In this document: positions 401 through 54,559 of the stretch, piece after piece
Numbering within the stretch: position 1 is the stretch's first letter
Layout: every line of letters starts with the position of its first letter
Assembly: GCF_037042905.1 (NCBI RefSeq)
Contig: NC_087245.1
Span: 20,710,001-20,774,000, forward strand
Origin: Lytechinus pictus
Lineage: Eukaryota
DNA length: 64,000 nt
Direction: 5' to 3'
The notes under the pieces: model-generated
Databases searched by the model: none
Told to the model about the DNA's origin: nothing
What the model saw: only the letters and a program-made list of their open reading frames with translations
Made by a program: the position numbers and the translations under genes

Positions 401-2874
401 TTAATCTTTGCCATGCCGTTAGAGATCTAGATCTGGGACATGAAAATTTTACTTTGTGAAATCCCGACATTTAAACTTAGAAATGATGAGACTAAAAATC
501 ACAAACCCTGATAACCACATGTGGGGCGTTGTATCATCACTTGGAAAATTATAAATAAATCTAGCTGGGAAGTCATACTTTTGGGGGGCTAATTTTCTCA
601 GCAATTCACCTTTTCAACTAGACCAAAATTATTTTACATAGGTACATTTTTTTAAATTCATGTATACAAATACTTGGGTTGTAATTTTATTGGATTCTGT
701 TCAAACTCATTTTGAGATCATTACAACAACTAGCACTAAAAAAAAAATCAAACATAATTTTCTCATTTCTTTTGATTTTCTATATAATGATTAAAAGCCC
801 ATTTGAACTCATAAAATAGAACATTCTGCTTGTATTTTCTTTATCACAATTTACCTCACAAATCTCATTTGAATTGCATTTTTCACTGACATAAATTTCG
901 TATTCACATTCAGTGCCTTTATTGTTAACTCAAATACTAATGTTCTAAGTGAACTATACATTTTATCACGTGGAATTTTCTTGTGTAATATATCTTTTCA
1001 TTAATTTAGCTGACAAGTGAAACGTTTTCCTAATGGTCCATAGTGTCTCGCTGTATTACAAATACACTGGAAATCAAAATATATTTAGGATTTTGTATTT
1101 GTACATGCTGTATATGTAGCATTTTTATATCCTCATTTCCTATCCTATTTGAAATGCTTTCATACAAGGGTCATTGTTTATTTGTTAAATAATATTTATT
1201 TTAAAATTTGTAAATATGACAGATGTACAATTTCTGATAATTATTTTGCTCTCAATTTCTTTTATTCATCCTTAATCCATCAAGGATAATTGCTCTTGCA
1301 AACTCAGTGTATTTTCTCGTTAGAATGATGGAAATAACATGTACACATACATGCATTCAGTTTATGATTATGATTTAGTTCACAATTTGATGTATTTCTT
1401 CTTATTCCTAACAAGAATTAATTGATGTCTGTTACTATCTACATGTATCTGTTGAAAATTTGTCTGTTGCGCATTTCTGATTTAGCTCACAATTCAATCT
1501 TAAAGCAGATTGTCATATCCTAATCAAATTCTGGATTATGTTTATCATAATCATGTTTAGAAAAATGCATTTTGTTTACCATGTTGTCATTATAGGCAAA
1601 GCAGATCCAAAAAGAATGTCTAATAAAGTTTAGAAATACACATGTTCCCCTTTTGGGATTTCATTTATTATTAAGTGTAGTCAAAGGCATCATCAGCTCG
1701 GGGGGGGGGGGGGGTTACCCCTGTGTGGCAAAAATAAACCAAGTGTATTATGCTGTTAAAAGTTTGCAATTTTGATATTCATATTAAACAAGCAGCTATA
1801 TTACAAGCTCTGCATATGGGAAGAAGGGGGTGTTTTGATCCCAGGGGGAGTGGGGGGCAAATGATAGACCCTGAACACACACATACACACAAATACTTTT
1901 AAAGGTTTGGTTTCTCCTTGGATCCATCTTATTCTCTAGTTCATATATTTGTAACTTACAGATAACATTTATCGGGGGGGGGGGCGTTCTATCACTGCTC
2001 CTTCTATTTGGTATGCGTGATGCTTTTATTTGTATTTCAGAAGCTTTGCTAAACATGTCTACAATTTTCGCTCTTACTAGCCATTATTTCTATTGAAGGT
2101 CCAGATTGCGGATTCATGTTTTTCCTTAATTTCAAGTTTTTCACTCAACACAATATAAGAATACACTTTTTTTTTTATGGCTGAAGCTTATTTGCCTGTA
2201 CTTGTGACCTATGCTTCTCATGTACATATTTTTATATTCATGTCATTCATTCATGTTTGTATAAAGGTGAAATATGTAGTGTCCAATGTCCAAAAATTGA
2301 TTTTGAAGGGGAAACAAATAGTTTTGACATGCTGACAGATTTGTATTAAAATTTCTACAAACTGCAAAATCATTTAGTGAATTGACTTCAGATTCCTGCT
2401 TGGTTTGGCATGATCATCATAGCAGGTGAGACAACTGGGATGAGAGAAAGAGACACACATGTATCGTCAGAAAAGAGAGATCAAAGGGATCAAAAGTATC
2501 AGAAAATAAATGTAATGTATTCAACTGTATTAAGCATCCAATAATGTCTGATTTTGACAATTTAAAAGTGAGTTGAGAAAAAAAATGTATGCTTCAACAC
2601 AAATAACAGACATCACATTGTACATATTAATGTGTTCCTTCAAAGGCTTATATTGAGAATGATATAATTAGTACACAATAAATAACTGGTTCATTTGTTG
2701 AAGAACATTATATATATATAAATGTGTGAAGTTATACATGTACAACAGCTTTGGCAACTCTTTTATTTAAATAGTTTGTGAAAGAAATGGATGAAGAGAA
2801 CAATGGTAGGCTTAGCTTAAATCAAGGTTCCCCAGAGCTATCTACCCTTTGGAAAAATTGGTGATGCCGAAAAA

Positions 2875-2946
2875 TGTCTCTGCTGGGAATCAAACCTGGG
2901 CCCCCAGCTTTGAACGCCGGTGCCTTAACCACTAGACCACAGAGAC
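2875..2946 (-). tRNA. Degenerate tRNA-like gene, anticodon TCA (left-arm copy)
   Basis: Reverse complement GTCTCTGTGGTCTAGTGGTTAAGGCACCGGCGTTCAAAGCTGGGGGCCCAGGTTTGATTCCCAGCAGAGACA followed by T5; T-stem mismatches and B box mutated (GGTTTGA). Confidence 0.55.
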
Positions 2947-3279
2947 GGGTAAGTGGCTAGGGCGACCCCGATCCGATTAACCGTCAGACAGATTTTCGAC
3001 ACTACCAATTATAATTTCCTTTGTCGGGTGAAGGTGGGTTTTGAACAATGACAAGCCGCCATGCCTCAGCTGGATCAAAGCTATTGCTTTGATACAGTAC
3101 CAGTATGGGAGAAAGTATACAAATGTGTGAAGTTATACTGTATCAAAACAATAGCTTTGATCCAGCTGAGGCATGGCGGCTTGTCATTGTTCAAAACCCA
3201 CCTTCACCCGACAAAGGAAATTATAATTGGTATAGTGTCTGACGGTTAATCGGATCGGGGTCGCCCTAGCCACTTACCC

Positions 3280-3351
3280 GTCTCTGTGGTCTAGTGGTTA
3301 AGGCACCGGCGTTCAAAGCTGGGGGCCCGGGTTCGATTCCTGGCAGAGACA
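3280..3351 (+). tRNA. tRNA / tRNA-like gene with anticodon TCA (opal-suppressor type, short variable arm)
   Basis: Acceptor GTCTCTG/CAGAGAC, D stem GTCT/AGGC, anticodon stem CCGGC/GCTGG with loop GTTCAAA (TCA at 3313-3315), variable GGGC, T stem CCGGG/CCTGG with loop TTCGATT, discriminator A, then TTTTTT (3352-3357); intact A and B boxes. Confidence 0.75.
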
Positions 3352-3600
3352 TTTTTTGGCATCACCAATTTTTCTAAAGGGCAGATAGCTCTGGGGAACC
3401 TTGATTTAAGCTACACCTACCTTTGTTCTCTTCATCCATTTCTTTCACAAAATATATATATATATACACACAGTGTCTACAAGAATTATTTGCAAGCTAC
3501 ATACAACAATGCAAAATGAGAAGAGCTATGAACAAAAGTTCCTAACTTGGCCATCATAAAACAAAATGAATTAAACGTATATCATATGAAAGAGAAGTAA

Positions 3601-8951: not shown

Positions 8952-9992
8952 TTACAAACCCGTCATCGGTGGCAAGTTGGTGGCGTTTGTTGAGAGGGAC
9001 TCCGATGCATCTATCTTGTGTTCGAAAACAGGACCGAGACGCGCACGGGTTCCGACGCAAAGACCCTTGATGGCTTTCCGAAAATGAGCATTCATAACGA
9101 TATATACCACGGGATTCATGCAGGAGTTGAAGAAAGCGAGGACGGTGAGGGCGCGGTGCAGAATGCTGTTGATGTAAGTGAAAGGAATTACGCCGATGGT
9201 AACGCCGAAAAAGGCAATTTGGTTTGGTGCCCAACATATGACATAGATGAGGATGACTATGACCATCATCTTGATGATACGAGATCGAGCCGCTAGAAGA
9301 CCACTCGAGCGCATTCCTACATCCTTGTTTCCCTCAAACCGTTTGGATTCTCGGAAAAGGTTCCGCGCAATCAGGGTCTGTGTCACCATCATGATCAGGA
9401 TCGGGATTACAAGTCGGATGACAAAGGTGTAGGCGCCGAACGCGAGCTGGGCTGTGGAAGTCGGGAAGGTGAAGATGCAACGTCCACTTGAGCCATCGAT
9501 TTCAAAGACGAAGATACCAGGGAAACACATGAGAAAGGCGGCAAACCATGTCAAAACGATGCAGATGATCACACGTCGTTTGCTCACCAGGCGGTTGAAC
9601 GCGAGTGGGTAGACGATGGCAAAGTAACGATCCACTGACACCGTCACTAATGCATAGGTTGAAGCTGTTATGGCGATCCACATGAGCATCTGGGAATCTA
9701 TGAGTCGACAGTAGATTTCACCCAACCATGTATCGGGTGCGGTCTGGAGATCGGGAATCGGGATTAGCAGAATGGACGTCAGGAGATCAGCCACCGCGAG
9801 GCTCTGAATCAGGATATCAGTGCTACGGCTATGAGATCGACGTTGAAACATGACGATCACCACCAACAGATTCCCCAGGATCCCGACGATCGCGACAACG
9901 AGCTGGATGACGAGTGACCATTGCCAATCTAGTGTTTGCCAAGACCAAAAAAGATTAAGAACATTCGACGCTGTTGTCTCAAGATTTTCCAT
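8952..9992 (-). CDS. Class A (rhodopsin-like) GPCR, galanin/allatostatin-A/somatostatin receptor-like, intronless CDS, 346 aa
   Basis: Seven hydrophobic segments with class A motifs: TM1 GILGN, TM2 SLAVADLL, ECL1 W..EIYC, TM3 SVDRY, TM4 W, TM5 LVIP, TM6 ICWAP, TM7 NSCMNPVVY; GC content clearly above flanks. Confidence 0.95.
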   Translation of the reverse strand: MENLETTASNVLNLFWSWQTLDWQWSLVIQLVVAIVGILGNLLVVIVMFQRRSHSRSTDILIQSLAVADLLTSILLIPIPDLQTAPDTWLGEIYCRLIDSQMLMWIAITASTYALVTVSVDRYFAIVYPLAFNRLVSKRRVIICIVLTWFAAFLMCFPGIFVFEIDGSSGRCIFTFPTSTAQLAFGAYTFVIRLVIPILIMMVTQTLIARNLFRESKRFEGNKDVGMRSSGLLAARSRIIKMMVIVILIYVICWAPNQIAFFGVTIGVIPFTYINSILHRALTVLAFFNSCMNPVVYIVMNAHFRKAIKGLCVGTRARLGPVFEHKIDASESLSTNATNLPPMTGL

Positions 9993-11242
9993 GATTAAGT
10001 CCTAGAGAATGATACAAGATTCTGTTGTGGTTTGGATTGTTTTCGATGAATTAAAGACAGTCAATCACAGATTCACCCTTTAAAAGTTTCAATAAATTTA
10101 TCGCCAGCAACGCCCCCTTCGATGCAACAGTCCTAATTCGATGAGTTTCATTTGTGTTATTGACTGTCAATCTAATCCTTCGGATTATCAAACGGATACC
10201 GACATCGATGATGTAGAAGTCGACAGTCTGTCGCTTTCTGTTAGTGTAGTCGCTCTCGGGAACACTTATCTGCAAAGTGAAATATAATAGTAAATGGAGA
10301 GCGAATCATTATCTCACACCTGTAAAAGACTAAATTCATGTCTATTTATACTTCGAAGAAAGAGAAACATTTCCGCTACTCCGGGGGAAACTAAGTTACA
10401 ATAGCCAGACCTGACAACCTTTCAGATGTAATCACCCCAAGAAGAGCACATTCATTCTCATGTGACACTTACAGAAGTATATGCGTCTTCTGAATGCGAG
10501 GTCGCTTTTAATCCATCGGAATTACTCTAAAAGTACCCCCCTGGCGCGGCCGTTACTCTTTGAAGTGTTGGACGGCAATAAAGTGGTCTGTCATGGTCTT
10601 TCGAGAAAAAAAAGAGATTTCTTTTGCTAACGCGGTTTCAGTCGGGGATTATTTTCTCATTGGAATAGCCGAATCGTCTGCTTAACGACATTATCCGTCA
10701 AATCTTGTCATCTACTCATAACTTGTTCACATCTTCATTAGATGTCATTGCATGTCTTGATTAACAGTGCTTACCCCGAAAGCGGGGTGCGAGAAGCCAT
10801 AAAAGGGGGATGGGTCCGAATGGAAAACTAGAATAGAGCGCCAAATGACGAAGTCTTTCCCCGCAATTTTTTATGTTTTATATTGAAGATAATCGATTTT
10901 TCTTTCATTTTGATCCTCTATTATATTCCTTCCTTAAAGGAACATGTACCTTCTTCAGTTTATAAATAACAACAAAAAAGAAGCAATATGCAATTTAAGC
11001 ATGCTAAAAGAAAAATCAATGATAATTACACAGATTTTTCGAAACAGACTGTAGAAGGACATAAGGCAAGAATCAGACATTATTTGATACATTCGGTAAT
11101 TTGAATGTCATTGAGTAGGAATATTAATTCATAATCACCTGCTCATATCCAAGTCATTCCCATGGAGATATTAAACAATGGCAATATTATTTTGATGTGG
11201 AAATTAATGATGTGTCTGGTTTAGACCGAACTGTCTGCATGA

Positions 11243-42538: not shown

Positions 42539-43142
42539 TAGACAGCTGGCAGCCGTCTGTTTTGAGGAGTTTTTTAACATTTTAAATTTTTTTTAATTTC
42601 TCCTCGTACACAGACGGCTCGCTATCGTGTAGACAGGAATAACCGTAGTTTCTGGGGATTTATTCAACAATTTCTGACATTTTACTGTAATCCCCATTTA
42701 CCAATGTATGGTGAGTGGAGCCAACGTAGTTCAGCGGAACAACCAAAATACAGAGACTGAAGCTTTTGGTCTAGCTATCGTGCAGCCACCATTAGGGGGT
42801 TAACAATGCAAAATCCCCCCGACGGGGCTCATCCATTTTTGTCTTTATGTCATAAAAATATATAAAAGAACTGTACCAAAATAAAGACTTTTATTCGGTT
42901 TTGGCCTGAAATGCACCAAAACGGGGAAAAAATAAACTTAAAAGGGGGGAAAAACAGTGACTTACTTCAGCTGTTGTGCAACTTCACTTCCCTGTTTTAT
43001 CCGAACTTAATAAACATATGGCCATTGAGTCCCTGGCTGTACAGATCGAGCTAGAACTTTGGTCTCTGTATTTGGTAAGTGGAGCCAACGGAGTTCAGCG
43101 GAACAGCCAACATAACAGAGACCGAAGCTTTGTTTTGGTCTA
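42539..43142 (+). mobile_element. TAGAC...GTCTA element copy 1 (AcademH-like, non-autonomous), with nested insertion
   Basis: Collinear with 43396-43844 once 42630-42773 and one TSD copy are removed; its own TSD is not recognisable. Confidence 0.75.
42630..42773 (+). mobile_element. 144-bp TAGAC...GTCTA element nested in copy 1
   Basis: Exact 9-bp TSD gctatcgtg (42621-42629, 42774-42782); 3' end shared with host family; single gctagcgtg at the empty site in copy 2. Confidence 0.85.
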
Positions 43143-43395: not shown

Positions 43396-43844
43396 TAGAC
43401 AGCTGGCAGCCGTCTGTTTCGAGGAGTTTTTTAACTTTTTTTTTTTTTTTTAAATTTCTCCTCATACACAGACGGCTCGCTAGCGTGCAGCCACCATTAG
43501 GGGACTTGCAATGCAAAATCCCCCCATCGGGGCTCTTCAATTTTTGTCTTTAATGAATAAAAATTTTGAAAATTAACCCGACCAAAATGCAAATTAATAT
43601 TCCCTCTTGGCATTAATTGCCAAAAAACGGAGAAAAATCAAGTTAAAAAGAACAAAAACAGTGACTTACCTCGGCTGTCGCGCAAATTCACTTCCCCGTT
43701 TTATCCGATCTTAAGTACATAAACATATGGCCATTGAGTCCCCTGTACAGATCGCGCTAGAACTTCGGTCTCTGTATTTGGTGAGTGAAGCCAACGGAGT
43801 TCAGCTGAACAACCAACATAACAGAGACCGAAGCTTTTGGTCTA
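43396..43844 (+). mobile_element. TAGAC...GTCTA element copy 2 (449 bp, 9-bp TSD, AcademH-like)
   Basis: tgtctgcag at 43387-43395 and 43845-43853; 5-bp TIR; subterminal hairpins at both ends. Confidence 0.85.
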
Positions 43845-43853
43845 TGTCTGCAG

Positions 43854-44298
43854 TAGACCAAAAGCTTCGGTCTCTGTTATGTTGGTTGTTCAGCTGAACT
43901 CCGTTGGCTTCACTCACCAAATACAGAGACCGAAGTTCTAGCGCGATCTGTACAGGGGACTCAATGGCCATATGTTTATGTACTTAAGATCGGATAAAAC
44001 GGGGAAGTGAATTTGCGCGACAGCCGAGGTAAGTCACTGTTTTTGTTCCTTTTAACTTGATTTTTCTCCGTTTTTGGGCAATTAATGCCAAGAGGGAATA
44101 TTACTTTGCATTTTGGTCGCGTTAATTTTCAAAATTTTTATTCATTAAAGACAAAAATTGAAGAGCCCCGACGGGGGGATTTCGCATTGCAAGTCCCCTA
44201 ATGGTGGCTGCACGCTAGCGAGCCGTCTGTGTACGAGGAGAATAAAAATTAAAAAAATGTTAAAAAACTCCTCGAAACAGACGGCTGCCAGCTGTCTA
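43854..44298 (-). mobile_element. TAGAC...GTCTA element copy 3 (445 bp), inverted relative to copy 2
   Basis: Reverse complement of copy 2; tgtctgcag at 43845-43853 and 44299-44307. Confidence 0.85.
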
Positions 44299-47690: not shown

Positions 47691-47890
47691 AATTACAGTT
47701 TGGCTGAACATAAATGTTAATATGCGAGCGAGCGAGCAAATTTTCAACAGTTGGAAGACTGGATGGTGATCAAAATCGTGTTTCTTTTTAAATTACAGTT
47801 TGGCTGAACATAAATGTTAATATGCGAGCGAGCGAGCAAATTTTCAACAGTTGGAAGACTGGATGGTGATCAAAATCGTGTTTCTTTTTA
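47691..47890. repeat. Perfect tandem duplication, 2 x 100 bp
   Basis: 47691-47790 is identical to 47791-47890. Confidence 0.95.
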
Positions 47891-50560: not shown

Positions 50561-52581
50561 GTGAAAACTTTTTTTGTGGTATAAGTGTATAGTAAGCTTA
50601 CACCTCACACCGATTTTAAAAATATGTGTTTTAAGCATACGCATTCACTCATTACTGAATTTCCTTACAATAATCTTATATAACATTCTTCTCGAAAGAA
50701 AAACACAAATAAACAATGTTGTGTCTTTTTATGATGACAATCCTAGACTTCTCCTGCTAATTGTAAATTTTAGTAGATCATGTTTGGAATGATATTTTTA
50801 ATTTGTTATGTTATGAAAAATGTTTATTACGAATGGTATGAATATTATGCTGAAGAGAAGAATAGATCAAATAAACTAAAATGTATGGGAACCATAGCAA
50901 CACAATTTCTGACAAATGTGAAAATATGTCTTGTAAATCTTAAGCTCGATACCTATTGTTTTTGCCAAATTTCATGAACATAGCTCATAAAATGAAGAAG
51001 TCGTTCAATTAGCATGACGTTAACATATAAATGCCGTTACAAAGGCAACGCAGTTTCAAAATAATGCCTAGGAAATTCGAAGTTTCGAATGCTAAAATGC
51101 ATTCTAATCATTGAATATTATTGGTACATATAGCACTGGTTGTTAATGAAAACAGGTTGCCTAGCAAACGTTGCTAACTTGCTATAGGCCTATATTAAGA
51201 TTATTAAAATTTTCCACCATCTTTGAAAATGTTAAGAATGTTCTTTTGATCATTGTATTCCCAATTTCATGCCATTATCATAGTCTGAACAATATGTTTG
51301 TTGTATCTTTATCGTTTATCAAGCGTTATTTTGTAAGAAGTACTCTCCCTTTAATAACGAACCCCTCCCACTCTTACATTTTCGATGACCCAACACCGTC
51401 AAAGTATGCAACAGCTGTACAGCTTGTTATCATTTTTCATTTTTATCGAGCTCTCTTCTATTCAGTATCACAAACCTGTATTCTGCCACCGTGGCGTGTA
51501 AAATTGGCGCCTCCGCCGTGATCCCAAGAAATGGCAACCAGTCTCTAAACGTATTTAAGCGAGGGTAGCAACTTCTCGGCGGGGAATTACAAACGCTTGC
51601 GGAGGGAGTCGGGTACATTGAAAGAGAGATTCCGTTTGAGTGACTGAGTCAGACTCGCTCGACTGGAGTACCTTGCTCGGTAAATGCATTTAGCAATCGG
51701 AGCGTGCTGGATTCCGTGTCTGCGATCGTCGCTCGACCGCTTTTGCGTTATGATCTTCAGCTTGAATTCCACAAATGGATTGTTTTTCTCCGTGTTTGGA
51801 AGCAGCAAGTTCTTATTTTGAGCAAGTTTAAGTTGCCTTCGACCTTAATGTTTCCCAGGATGTATTTCATTTTTAAAAATATTCCGTTCGTGCACTAAAT
51901 TTGGATTTATTGAAAAGTGATCATGGATTGTAAACAACTCTATGGAAACTGATACCTTCTTTGGATTATAATTCGGATATCAATATAAGAGGTATGTGTG
52001 GAATAACCAACAGTTGTATCAAGTTAATCTACATAATTGATTTTTACAATAGAAAACTGATTCTATTGAATAAACAATCAAATACTCATTTTCATTGACA
52101 TTGTGTACCAATCATTATGTACCCATGGTTGTGATGATTTATTTTTCCTTTTCGAGTTTCGACTCTCGTCTACCGTAGATATACAGCACTTATATTGGCC
52201 ATAAAAATACATTCCAATCCATGGCTAGCCTACTATAGGCTTATTATGACATAGGTCTGTTATACACTATAATATTTTGACAGTGCGTGTAAAATGGCAA
52301 CCAAGATTTAAAACATCGATTAAATTTTTTTTTACCTGATTATGTAATAATGAACTTCTTCGGATTTTTAATGGTACCTTGCTTGCACCCATTATTGCTA
52401 TAGACATGGTCGAATATTATTGATATCAATATATAGACCTATGTCATGCTACAACATTGCAGGGTTGAGGTGAAACTATCACTGATGATGCCATGGTCAA
52501 CTGGTTCCTACTTTATTGGATAAATGACATTATCCCTAGAGGCTTTGTTAATGGCGGCACCAGGGACGGGGTCGCATGGGT

Positions 52582-52608
52582 CACCACCACCACCATAACA
52601 CCACACCA

Positions 52609-52687
<79 letters not shown>

Positions 52688-52748
52688 GCTGCTACTACTA
52701 CTTCTACTACTACTACTACTACTATTACTACTACTGCTGCTGCTGCTG

Positions 52749-52789
<41 letters not shown>

Positions 52790-52811
52790 GCTACTACTAC
52801 TACTACCCCTT

Positions 52812-52855
<44 letters not shown>

Positions 52856-52989
52856 GCTGCTACTACTACTACTATTACTACTACTACCTCTATACCTCTA
52901 TTACTACTACTATACTACTACTACTCCTACTACTTCTACTACTACTACTACTACTACCACTACTTCTCCTACTGCTACTACTACCACTT

Positions 52990-53031
<42 letters not shown>

Positions 53032-53085
53032 TTACCTCTACTACTACTACTACTGCTACTACTACTACTATACTAATACTACTCT

Positions 53086-53138
<53 letters not shown>

Positions 53139-53144
53139 TACTAC

Positions 53145-53175
<31 letters not shown>

Positions 53176-53244
53176 TACTACTACTGCTGCTGCTACTACT
53201 GCTTCTTATACTACTACTACTACTACTACAACTTCTATTACTAT

Positions 53245-53295
<51 letters not shown>

Positions 53296-53515
53296 TACTA
53301 CTACTATACTACACTCTTAAAAGGTTGGCAACATACTGTCCACACAACAACTGGTTAAAACTTTATCCAATTCTCGGTAGTTTTAAACCAACAATGTGTG
53401 CTTTGGGTGAAAACTACACAGTATTGCTTGAAAACTGCCCAAAGTTGGATAATCTTTTTAACCAATTGTTGTGTGGACAGTATATTGACCAACATTGCCG
53501 AACATTTTAAGAGTG

Positions 53516-53558
<43 letters not shown>

Positions 53559-53735
53559 GCTGCTGCTGCTACTGCTAATTACCACTGCTACTACTACTAC
53601 TACTACTGCTACCACTACTATACTACTGCTTCTTCTACTACTACTGCTGCTGCTACTACTACTACCACCACCACCACCAGTACCAGAACTACTATTGCTG
53701 ATGCTTCTACTTCTACTATACTACTTCTTCTACTG

Positions 53736-53787
<52 letters not shown>

Positions 53788-53806
53788 AACTACTACTGCT
53801 ACTAGT
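52582..53806. repeat. Long (TAC)n/(CTA)n microsatellite with (CAC)n and (TGC)n variants
   Basis: Directly visible trinucleotide array of about 1 kb, split by an insertion at 53312-53515. Confidence 0.97.
53312..53515. mobile_element. CACT-ended palindromic MITE (EnSpm/CACTA-like) inside the microsatellite
   Basis: TA-CACTCTTAAAA ... TTTTAAGAGTG-TA; internal arms atactgtccacacaacaa / ttgttgtgtggacagtat. Confidence 0.75.
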
Positions 53807-54559
53807 ATATAATCTCTATTGGCTGATAAAATATTTAAGCCCACTATCACTCTCCTATACTGGTATACTTCAATTACCTTGTTGCTCTTATACTATTGCT
53901 GTCACAACTCTTGTTGCTATTGCCACTACTATTATTGTTACTATTGCCGCTGCTTTATTTATCTTGATAGTCTTTATTTTTCAGAAAAAAAATCTAAATT
54001 TATAAAACATGTGTTACATCTTGGATAAAACAGAACATTCGTGGTGTCTTACGAACAAATTATTGTAATTATATTGTTGTTCACTCAAAATCGTGTACCC
54101 TGGTCCTACCAACCAGACAATAAACCAATAAAAGTAAATGAATAACCCTAAGCCTACTACAACTACTGATGCTGCTTCCGCTAATTTACTTGCCTCTCAT
54201 GCCACAATACTCTTACTAATACACTACTTGTGGCTATGTCCGTATGCTATTACCATATAACTACCTATTTGAGTCTTTCAGTTATAACATTAATTAGTAT
54301 CATGCTAAAGACTTAAAATCTCACGAAATCTTTGCGACACTGCATGTATATTATGCTTCCTATGATAAACAAAATTACAGACCATACTCCACCTTAGTGC
54401 CACGCTTAGACATTATTTTATACGATGCATTTTGAAATTCATTGATCACAAGTGAAGTTTGTTTGCCAAAGAGGGCTCTGTGTTAACAAAAGGTCACCTA
54501 AGAAATGGCACCTGGGGATAAGGCCTGAATACTGTTGACCATGTTTTTTGTATCAACAA

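What the first reader, a model, noticed from the sequence alone, without database searches (positions are those of the whole stretch)
3280..3357. Intact-looking tRNA gene with a UGA-reading (TCA) anticodon and short variable arm, carried inside a repeat element
Seen: all four stems pair (7/4/5/5 bp with G-U wobbles), the 7-nt loop GTTCAAA places TCA at positions 34-36 with U33 and A37, A and B boxes are intact, and a T6 Pol III terminator follows directly. Known: tRNA-Sec also has a UCA anticodon but has a long variable arm and an extended acceptor/T stack; this gene has a 4-nt variable loop, so it is not tRNA-Sec. The D and T arms (TGGTCTAGTGGTTA, GGCCCGGGTTCGATTCC) resemble eukaryotic tRNA-Glu, so it may descend from a TTC tRNA whose stem register shifted by one base. 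It is not a normal SINE head, because ~140 bp upstream and ~100 bp downstream are shared by both copies and a terminator follows the tRNA. Inference: a mobile element may carry its own opal-suppressor tRNA (stop-codon readthrough for an autonomous partner with in-frame UGA), or use the tRNA only as a Pol III promoter or RNase P/Z processing signal. Caveat: G32 is atypical.
Basis: partly seen in the sequence, partly recalled or inferred. Interest (0 to 1): 0.78.

Follow-up and report, generated by a model that had tools for sequence, protein, structure and literature searches.

The report
tRNA-carrying Penelope-type selfish repeat
The stop-codon-reading tRNA look-alike is real, but it is one module of a 408-base selfish repeat copied over two thousand times in the way Penelope-like retrotransposons copy; its anticodon looks like a passenger, and the sequence just upstream is predicted to pair with and hide the tRNA fold.

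Summary
The cloverleaf, TCA anticodon, 4-nt variable loop and T6 are real. It is not tRNA-Sec. It is a module of a ~408-bp non-coding unit; its anticodon-arm 21-mer has 1,924 exact genomic matches. Copies sit in (TA)n, are 5'-truncated, form head-to-head pairs and homogeneous tandem arrays, and end at two fixed 3' ends ~38 bp apart: the Penelope-like (PLE) 'tail' signature. The window holds one head-to-head insertion. Suppressor reading not supported: position 36 is no more conserved than its neighbours, 7 of 25 older-type copies carry TCC, tRNA copies decay like their flanks, position 32 is G, and host PLE frames of ~900-1000 aa are open without TGA. Added here: the 45 bases upstream pair with the D arm, T arm and acceptor 3' strand (0 of 500 shuffles as stable), so long transcripts should hide the cloverleaf and only a transcript starting at +1 can form it. 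Closest: non-autonomous PLEs, non-LTR retrozymes (no ribozyme here) and Helenus TRIMs. The autonomous partner and the tRNA's role were not found. New variant; moderate-to-low interest.

The parts
3280..3351 (+). tRNA-like module: full cloverleaf, TCA at 34-36, G32, 4-nt variable loop, A and B boxes
   Evidence: 57.6 bits
3352..3357 (+). T6 run, Pol III terminator-like; a second run (T5) lies at 3369-3373
3235..3279 (+). 'Anti-tRNA' leader: predicted to pair with the D arm, T arm and acceptor 3' strand, leaving only the anticodon hairpin
   Evidence: -58.0 kcal/mol vs -41.2 +/- 2.7 for shuffled leaders, 0 of 500
3136..3450 (+). Right arm: 5'-truncated copy of the 408-bp unit (from about unit position 30 to the first 3' end)
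3452..3466 (.). (TA)n target microsatellite at the right arm's 3' end
2723..3135 (-). Left arm: one full unit, inverted, joined head-to-head to the right arm near 3133-3136
2875..2946 (-). Second tRNA-like module, already decaying (T-arm changes), followed by T5 at 2870-2874
   Evidence: 46.7 bits
2723..2767 (-). ~38-45-bp PLE-type 'tail' present on this arm only; ends in the AC-rich loop of a predicted hairpin
   Evidence: tail concept from PMC8557442 and PMC11167929
2709..2720 (.). (TA)n target microsatellite at the left arm's 3' end

Best explanation
A non-autonomous retroelement mobilised in trans by a Penelope-like element (PLE). Shown: the genomic anatomy, copy number, neutral decay after insertion and anticodon variation among source elements. 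Inferred steps: (1) a unit-length-or-longer RNA of the tRNA strand (concatemer or circle) folds into a rod in which the upstream leader masks the cloverleaf, which would shield the template from tRNA-processing nucleases; (2) a host PLE protein nicks (TA)n DNA and starts reverse transcription internally at one of two AC-rich sites ~38 nt apart, giving the two 3' ends; (3) priming on both strands gives head-to-head pairs like this one, and repeated passes over one template give homogeneous arrays. The tRNA module is most likely a captured tRNA or SINE-head gene kept for its Pol III promoter/TFIIIC site, as proposed for Helenus. Short +1 transcripts could fold as a cloverleaf but are unlikely to be charged and decode. 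TCA is a passenger state of the dominant source lineage.
For: 1,924 exact anticodon-arm matches and 2,377 within one mismatch. 10 of 25 loci are head-to-head pairs with one arm ending near unit position 369 and the other near 407, nearly all against (TA)n. Arrays of at least 32 and 35 units; sampled units are identical within an array (4 of 4 over ~13 kb; 2 of 2; 0-1 difference in 4) but differ by 9-17 between arrays. These features match PLE descriptions (PMC8557442 sections 6 and 10; PMC11167929). The second 3' end lies in an AC-rich hairpin loop. HHR-bearing PLEs are abundant in this genome and also end in (TA)n; family fragments sit in the same tracts in 3 of 7 downstream stretches. Anticodon: 30 of 453 single-base variants fall on position 36 vs 21.6 expected; 18 TCA and 7 TCC among 25 older-type copies picked blind to the anticodon (with 13, 20, 21, 52); non-CpG divergence is 55/1020 in the tRNA vs 30/589 and 21/481 in the flanks; 17 of 19 such copies have a broken stem pair. 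The leader abolishes acceptor pairing (P 1.00 to 0.00).
Against: No autonomous PLE sharing the 3' end was found in 30 endonuclease loci and 7 downstream stretches, out of 468 candidates, so the partner is inferred only. Two T runs (T6, T5) directly after the tRNA should stop Pol III, so a Cassandra-like unit-length Pol III transcript is hard to explain. Selection on the rod is not shown: shared variants keep pairs only slightly more often than singletons (17/10 vs 26/31 transitions, p=0.17); one compensatory pair in 124; one unit folds as well on the opposite strand; the leader helix reaches z<=-3 in only 3 of 11 older copies. The rod may be a relic of an old inverted junction. All stems pair although they differ from every sampled host tRNA, which a pure promoter would not need.
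Confidence: 0.72

Rival explanations
1. Ribozyme-free retrozyme: host tRNA-processing enzymes (RNase P and/or Z) cut tandem transcripts at the cloverleaf, a ligase closes unit-length circles, and PLE reverse transcriptase rolls around them. The leader acts as a switch between processable and protected folds.
For: Unit size and tandem form are like non-LTR retrozymes (PMC7229834 passages). No ribozyme match in a three-unit array at E<=10. Rod fold z about -5 to -7 in 5 of 6 natural units. Identical units within arrays. Only 3 copies start exactly at tRNA +1, as expected for a circle but not for a linear monomer. Stems fully paired though unlike sampled host tRNAs.
Against: A leader that masks the cloverleaf in any transcript entering from upstream works against RNase P/Z cleavage. 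No piles of read starts or ends in two RNA-seq runs, though such libraries may miss them. The few +1 truncations fit an unprocessed concatemer equally well. Wrap-around reads are uninformative because tandem DNA gives them too.
Confidence: 0.15
2. A working opal-suppressor tRNA carried to help an autonomous partner with in-frame UGA.
For: Intact cloverleaf, boxes and terminator. A +1 transcript keeps the acceptor stem. TCA dominates in both old and young copies. UGA-containing PLEs exist: Naiads of clams and spiders (PMC8557442), though these use SECIS and Sec. Eight copies have a canonical Y32 loop.
Against: TCC sources multiplied (7 of 25). No protection of position 36 or the stems. G32 is family-wide. 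About 1,900 intact anticodon arms against tens of genes per real isoacceptor (12 Arg-CCT, about 28 Gly-TCC, 58 Glu matches) would be costly if active (inference). Of 149 GIY-YIG matches, 7 hold a TGA, 2 TAA and 1 TAG, each in single copies, while 10 lie in stop-free frames of 895-1026 aa. No Naiad was seen among 28 translated loci.
Confidence: 0.04
3. A foldback/MITE-type DNA element or a plain satellite.
For: In this window the two arms form a ~730-bp palindrome; long tandem arrays exist.
Against: The inversion point differs at every locus, most loci are single or tandem, the arms end at two different fixed points and 5' ends are ragged; there are no constant terminal inverted repeats.
Confidence: 0.05
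4. An ordinary LINE-mobilised tRNA SINE.
For: tRNA-like Pol III boxes; a host SINE head has a near-identical D arm (15/16).
Against: 188 bp of family sequence lie upstream of the tRNA, a terminator follows it, only 3 copies begin at +1, and tandem and head-to-head forms with a tail are common.
Confidence: 0.02

Closest known systems
Non-autonomous Penelope-like elements (MRC1 and other Chlamys derivatives; Naiad/Neptune insertion pattern; PMC8557442, PMC11167929)
   Same: (TA)n targets, 5' truncation, head-to-tail multicopy and inverted 5' copies, optional 30-40 bp tail, AC-rich stem-loop at the 3' end, no coding capacity.
   Different: Carries a whole tRNA-like gene with terminator and an antisense leader; no shared 3' end with an autonomous family was found.
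Non-LTR retrozymes of animals (PMC7229834; bioRxiv 10.64898/2026.07.22.740005)
   Same: 170-400-nt class tandem unit, PLE-related, strongly self-paired unit RNA, homogeneous arrays.
   Different: No hammerhead or other Rfam ribozyme; circular RNA not shown; tRNA module instead.
Helenus / Ajax / Cassandra (TRIMp3; PMC10886601)
   Same: Small non-autonomous retroelement with an internal tRNA-derived Pol III promoter that is judged not to be a working tRNA.
   Different: Those are LTR elements with two LTRs, PBS, PPT and 4-5 bp TSDs; this one has PLE anatomy, and its cloverleaf is complete.
tRNA-Sec(UCA) and engineered opal suppressors
   Same: UCA anticodon, U33, A37.
   Different: 4-nt variable loop and 7/5 acceptor/T stems (not Sec); G32; thousands of neutrally decaying copies.
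tRNA-derived SINEs (host examples L076-L079)
   Same: A and B boxes; similar D arm.
   Different: tRNA is internal, followed at once by a terminator; different insertion anatomy.

Membership tests
tRNA-Sec | Long variable arm and 13-bp acceptor+T stack | tested here: not met
   4-nt variable loop, 7+5 bp
Functional suppressor tRNA | Cloverleaf with conserved boxes and U33/R37 | tested here: met
Functional suppressor tRNA | Pyrimidine at 32 (rule from own knowledge; PMC11231383 passage notes the 32:38 role) | tested here: not met
   G32 in the family; 8 copies with Y32 listed
Functional suppressor tRNA | Anticodon and stems conserved above flanks | tested here: not met
Functional suppressor tRNA | Mature CCA-tailed, charged RNA and readthrough | not testable with these tools
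   Only 150-nt cDNA libraries were laid
Non-autonomous PLE | Partial tandems, inverted 5' copy, 5' truncation | tested here: met
Non-autonomous PLE | Optional 30-40 bp tail / two 3' ends | tested here: met
   Ends near unit positions 369 and 407; 10 of 25 loci show one of each
Non-autonomous PLE | Microsatellite/AT-rich target | tested here: met
   flanks
Non-autonomous PLE | 3' similarity to an autonomous family | tested here: inconclusive
   None in 30+7 stretches of 468 candidates; Naiads not sampled
Non-LTR retrozyme | Type I hammerhead in each unit | tested here: not met
   (no core match in L011, while the scan found host PLE hammerheads)
Non-LTR retrozyme | Tandem units of about 170-400 nt | tested here: met
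   406-409 bp units
Non-LTR retrozyme | Circular unit-length RNA | not testable with these tools
   Wrap-around reads also arise from tandem DNA
Helenus/TRIMp3 | Two LTRs with PBS, PPT and 4-5 bp TSD | tested here: not met
   Contiguous units, no internal region, ragged 5' ends
SINE2 | tRNA head at the 5' end of copies | tested here: not met
   3 copies start at +1
MITE/foldback | Fixed terminal inverted repeats | tested here: not met
   Variable inversion points

The most novel reading that the evidence does not exclude
A retrozyme-like circular RNA parasite that has replaced the hammerhead with a tRNA cloverleaf: host RNase P/Z and a ligase make unit-length circles, a built-in antisense leader toggles the RNA between the processable cloverleaf and a protected rod, and a PLE reverse transcriptase rolls around the circle to write arrays of 30+ identical units. 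That would be a new route to circular retroelement RNA and the PLE counterpart of SINEs and TRIMp3.
Probability: 0.15. Interest if true: 0.75.

Novelty: new variant of a known kind. Interest (0 to 1): 0.36.

Why it matters
Practically, it seeds about two thousand false 'tRNA-Sec/suppressor' calls in this genome's annotation. Conceptually, small-RNA-gene-bearing parasites are described for LINEs (SINEs) and LTR elements (TRIMp3). My ten library searches found none described for Penelope-like elements, so this would fill that slot. Its two sharp 3' ends and young arrays make it a compact substrate for testing internal initiation and array formation by PLE proteins. A transposon-borne working suppressor would matter far more, but the evidence is against it.

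Tried and rejected
1) Ordered succession TCT to TCC to TCA: suggested by divergence (12.6%, 6.4%, 3.7%) but dropped. The TCA sample was biased to best BLAST hits, the tree mixes the types, and blind sampling gave 18 TCA to 7 TCC among older-type copies. Polarity is unresolved. 2) RNase P- or Pol III-defined 5' ends in inserted copies: only 3. 3) Strand-specific rod as proof of RNA selection: strong for one unit (z -7.1 vs -1.3) and for the local leader helix (-58.0 vs -34.7), but not general; the pair-keeping test was not significant. 4) Partner search: all 28 translated of 30 GIY-YIG loci had the endonuclease at the end of the frame (Neptune-, Poseidon- or Hydra-like by my reading); none shared sequence with the unit except separate nested insertions. 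5) Foreign origin of the tRNA: 0 matches in metagenome and viral contigs; only a 42-nt 86% match to a phage tRNA-Arg. 6) Single parent tRNA: unresolved; host Arg-TCT, Asp, Trp and others were not sampled. 7) RNA-seq: 1,978 and 1,354 reads from a quarter of each run, both directions about equal, mostly 90-95% alike, no start or end piles. This fits passenger copies in mRNAs or an unstranded library and says nothing on a 75-nt RNA. 8) miRNA-family hits are below cut-off and only reflect the palindrome.

Full report
OBSERVATION. Window 3280-3351(+) is a 72-nt cloverleaf with 7/4/5/5 stems, loop GT-TCA-AA, a 4-nt variable loop and A73, followed by T6. ARAGORN also finds a copy at 2875-2946(-). Rfam scores are 57.6 and 46.7 bits; a unit from a young array scores 60.9. 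The short variable loop and 7+5 stack exclude tRNA-Sec.

THE ELEMENT. The two copies are the arms of one head-to-head insertion: a full inverted unit at about 2723-3135 and a 5'-truncated unit at 3136-3450, each ending in (TA)n. The unit is 406-409 bp with the tRNA at positions 189-260. A 21-mer over the anticodon arm has 1,924 exact matches in the genome and 2,377 within one mismatch (array units are included). Of 25 independent loci inspected (picked as best matches to the tRNA), 5' ends are ragged while 3' ends fall at two fixed points, near unit positions 369 and 407. Ten of the 25 are head-to-head pairs with one arm ending at each point (L001, L003, L004, L005, L011/L031, L013, L015, L017, L019, L024). 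Arrays of at least 32 and 35 units exist. Sampled units are identical within an array (4 of 4 across about 13 kb, 2 of 2, and 0-1 difference among 4) but differ by 9-17 positions between arrays. This is the anatomy described for Penelope-like elements: partial tandems, an inverted 5' copy, an optional 30-40 bp tail and (TA)n targets (PMC8557442, section 6). In vitro the tail lies between two internal reverse-transcription starts in an AC-rich stem-loop, and both DNA strands are cut and extended (PMC11167929, parts 1-2 of 4). Here the second 3' end also falls in an AC-rich hairpin loop. The host is an animal (a GPCR-like frame lies at 8952-10001; family recalled). Earlier AI notes call it a sea urchin (not tested here). 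A second organism label holds a near-identical stretch spanning the tRNA (run X11, 173 nt with 2 differences).

IS THE ANTICODON FUNCTIONAL? Position 36 differs in 30 copies (19 TCC, 7 TCT, 4 TCG) of 453 single-mismatch copies, against 21.6 expected per position (p=0.08 for an excess), so it is not protected. Among 25 older-type copies selected by two diagnostic flank sites, blind to the anticodon, 18 are TCA and 7 TCC (19 read known). TCC source elements therefore multiplied, and UCA is not needed for mobility. I first read the data as a TCT-TCC-TCA succession; this blind sample removed that claim. In the 19 copies, non-CpG divergence is 55/1020 in the tRNA, 30/589 upstream and 21/481 downstream, and 17 of 19 have a broken stem pair: neutral decay after insertion. 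G32 is the family norm; 8 copies with a canonical Y32 loop are listed. Real isoacceptors number in tens (12 Arg-CCT, about 28 Gly-TCC, 58 Glu matches), so about 1,900 active suppressor genes would be a heavy load (inference). For a partner needing readthrough: 149 GIY-YIG matches (150 of 468 candidates scored) include 7 with a TGA, 2 TAA and 1 TAG, in single copies, and 10 in stop-free frames of 895-1026 aa. All 28 translated of 30 fetched loci have a C-terminal endonuclease. UGA-containing Naiads are known from clams and spiders but carry SECIS elements (PMC8557442 passages); none was seen here, and Naiads were not specifically searched. If the RNA were charged at all, TrpRS is the likeliest enzyme (G1-C72, C35, A36, A73; own knowledge, untested).

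ORIGIN OF THE tRNA. Against host genes the window copy has 50/73 identities to Glu-CTC (with a one-base shift that turns Glu G31 into G32), 47/72 to Glu-TTC, 48/72 to Gly-TCC, 48/73 to Arg-CCT and 49/73 to a host SINE head. The T arm matches Glu and Gly; the D stem 3' side and anticodon stem resemble Arg-CCT. The acceptor stem matches none of them yet pairs 7 of 7. Either an unsampled tRNA was captured with its terminator, or the fold was once rebuilt under selection. No foreign source was found.

THE ANTI-tRNA LEADER. A unit read from tRNA +1 round to the next +1 folds as a rod (z -5.25; about -5 to -7 in 5 of 6 natural units and -1.4 in a decayed TCC unit). Forcing the cloverleaf costs 23 kcal/mol. 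Locally, the 45 nt at 3235-3279 pair with the D arm, T arm and acceptor 3' strand and leave only the anticodon hairpin: -58.0 kcal/mol against -41.2 +/- 2.7 for shuffled leaders (0 of 500) and -34.7 for the reverse strand. Acceptor-stem probability falls from 1.00 without leader to 0.00 with 20 or more leader bases; two host tRNAs with their own shorter (12- and 23-nt) leaders keep it. So a transcript entering from upstream should hide the tRNA, and only a +1 transcript can show it. Against over-reading: these are predictions; the helix reaches z<=-3 in only 3 of 11 older copies; inherited variants do not keep rod pairs significantly more often than singletons (p=0.17); RNAalifold finds one compensatory pair in 124; and one unit folds equally well on the minus strand. 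The leader could be the relic of an old inverted junction of the kind this family makes all the time.

MECHANISM. Shown: anatomy, numbers, decay, anticodon variation. Inferred: PLE-driven priming in (TA)n at two internal sites on a concatemeric or circular template. Only 3 copies begin exactly at +1, so the template is not a linear RNA starting there. No ribozyme was found, although host PLEs nearby carry hammerhead cores. T6 and T5 after the tRNA argue against a Cassandra-like unit-length Pol III transcript, which leaves the source of the template open. Two RNA-seq runs show reads in both directions equally and no start or end piles; they cannot see a 75-nt RNA. I put the PLE-type element with a passenger anticodon at 0.72, tRNA-nuclease-made circles at 0.15 and a working suppressor at 0.04.

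LITERATURE. Seen: PMC8557442 (passages; sections 6, 7, 10), PMC11167929 (parts 1-2 of 4), bioRxiv 10.64898/2026.07.22.740005 (part 1 of 5), PMC7229834 (passages), PMC10886601 (passages), PMC11231383 (passages). Searches listed no paper on a tRNA-bearing non-autonomous PLE (listings and abstract starts only). Repbase and Dfam were not searchable and no supplements were read; the family may already be catalogued there. Eight earlier AI notes on other copies mostly reach the same view. They are not independent support, and none of the shown text mentions the leader.

VERDICT. Real feature, new variant of a known kind, not a suppressor on present evidence. Interest 0.36.

Noticed in passing
G000:C3:56147014, C3:80318746, C8:23216565, C8:25142104 (L013), C8:30247872, C9:21090154, C10:31273297, C19:3426672: Eight family copies have mutated G32 to C/T, giving a canonical UGA-reading loop; these are the likeliest accidental suppressors.
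   Followed up: partly
L098, L099, L100: Family fragments and several different hammerhead-bearing PLE 3' ends pile into the same (TA)n tracts, which act as insertion sinks.
   Followed up: partly
L082, L083, L098 and unit positions ~320-327: A CTACG motif occurs near the 3' end of three PLE families and ~35 nt before the family's first 3' end; only a 5-mer, could be chance or a recognition signal.
   Followed up: no
G000:C4:9.70-9.74 Mb (L035-L062): Large tandem cluster of tRNA-Lys(TTT) genes with decaying copies, some reading CTT and some called TTA (ochre) by ARAGORN.
   Followed up: no
L076-L079: Two ordinary tRNA-headed SINE families (TCC and TCG loops) with related bodies.
   Followed up: partly
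L089: One PLE copy has TGA at a cysteine of the endonuclease motif while its ~95-97% identical relatives have Cys; a single-copy change, not a Sec-type family trait.
   Followed up: partly
L065, L070, L120: Three older copies carry a 5-10 nt duplication in the anticodon stem 5' strand.
   Followed up: no
window 43441-44257 and 42539-43131: A 404-bp, 97% inverted repeat with a 9-nt spacer plus an older direct copy: another young palindromic element.
   Followed up: no
window 8952-10001 (-): Intronless 349-aa frame that looks like a rhodopsin-type GPCR (family recalled, not searched).
   Followed up: no
window 47691-47890: Perfect 100-bp tandem duplication.
   Followed up: no
window 52550-53810: About 1.2 kb degenerate (TAC)n microsatellite.
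   Followed up: no
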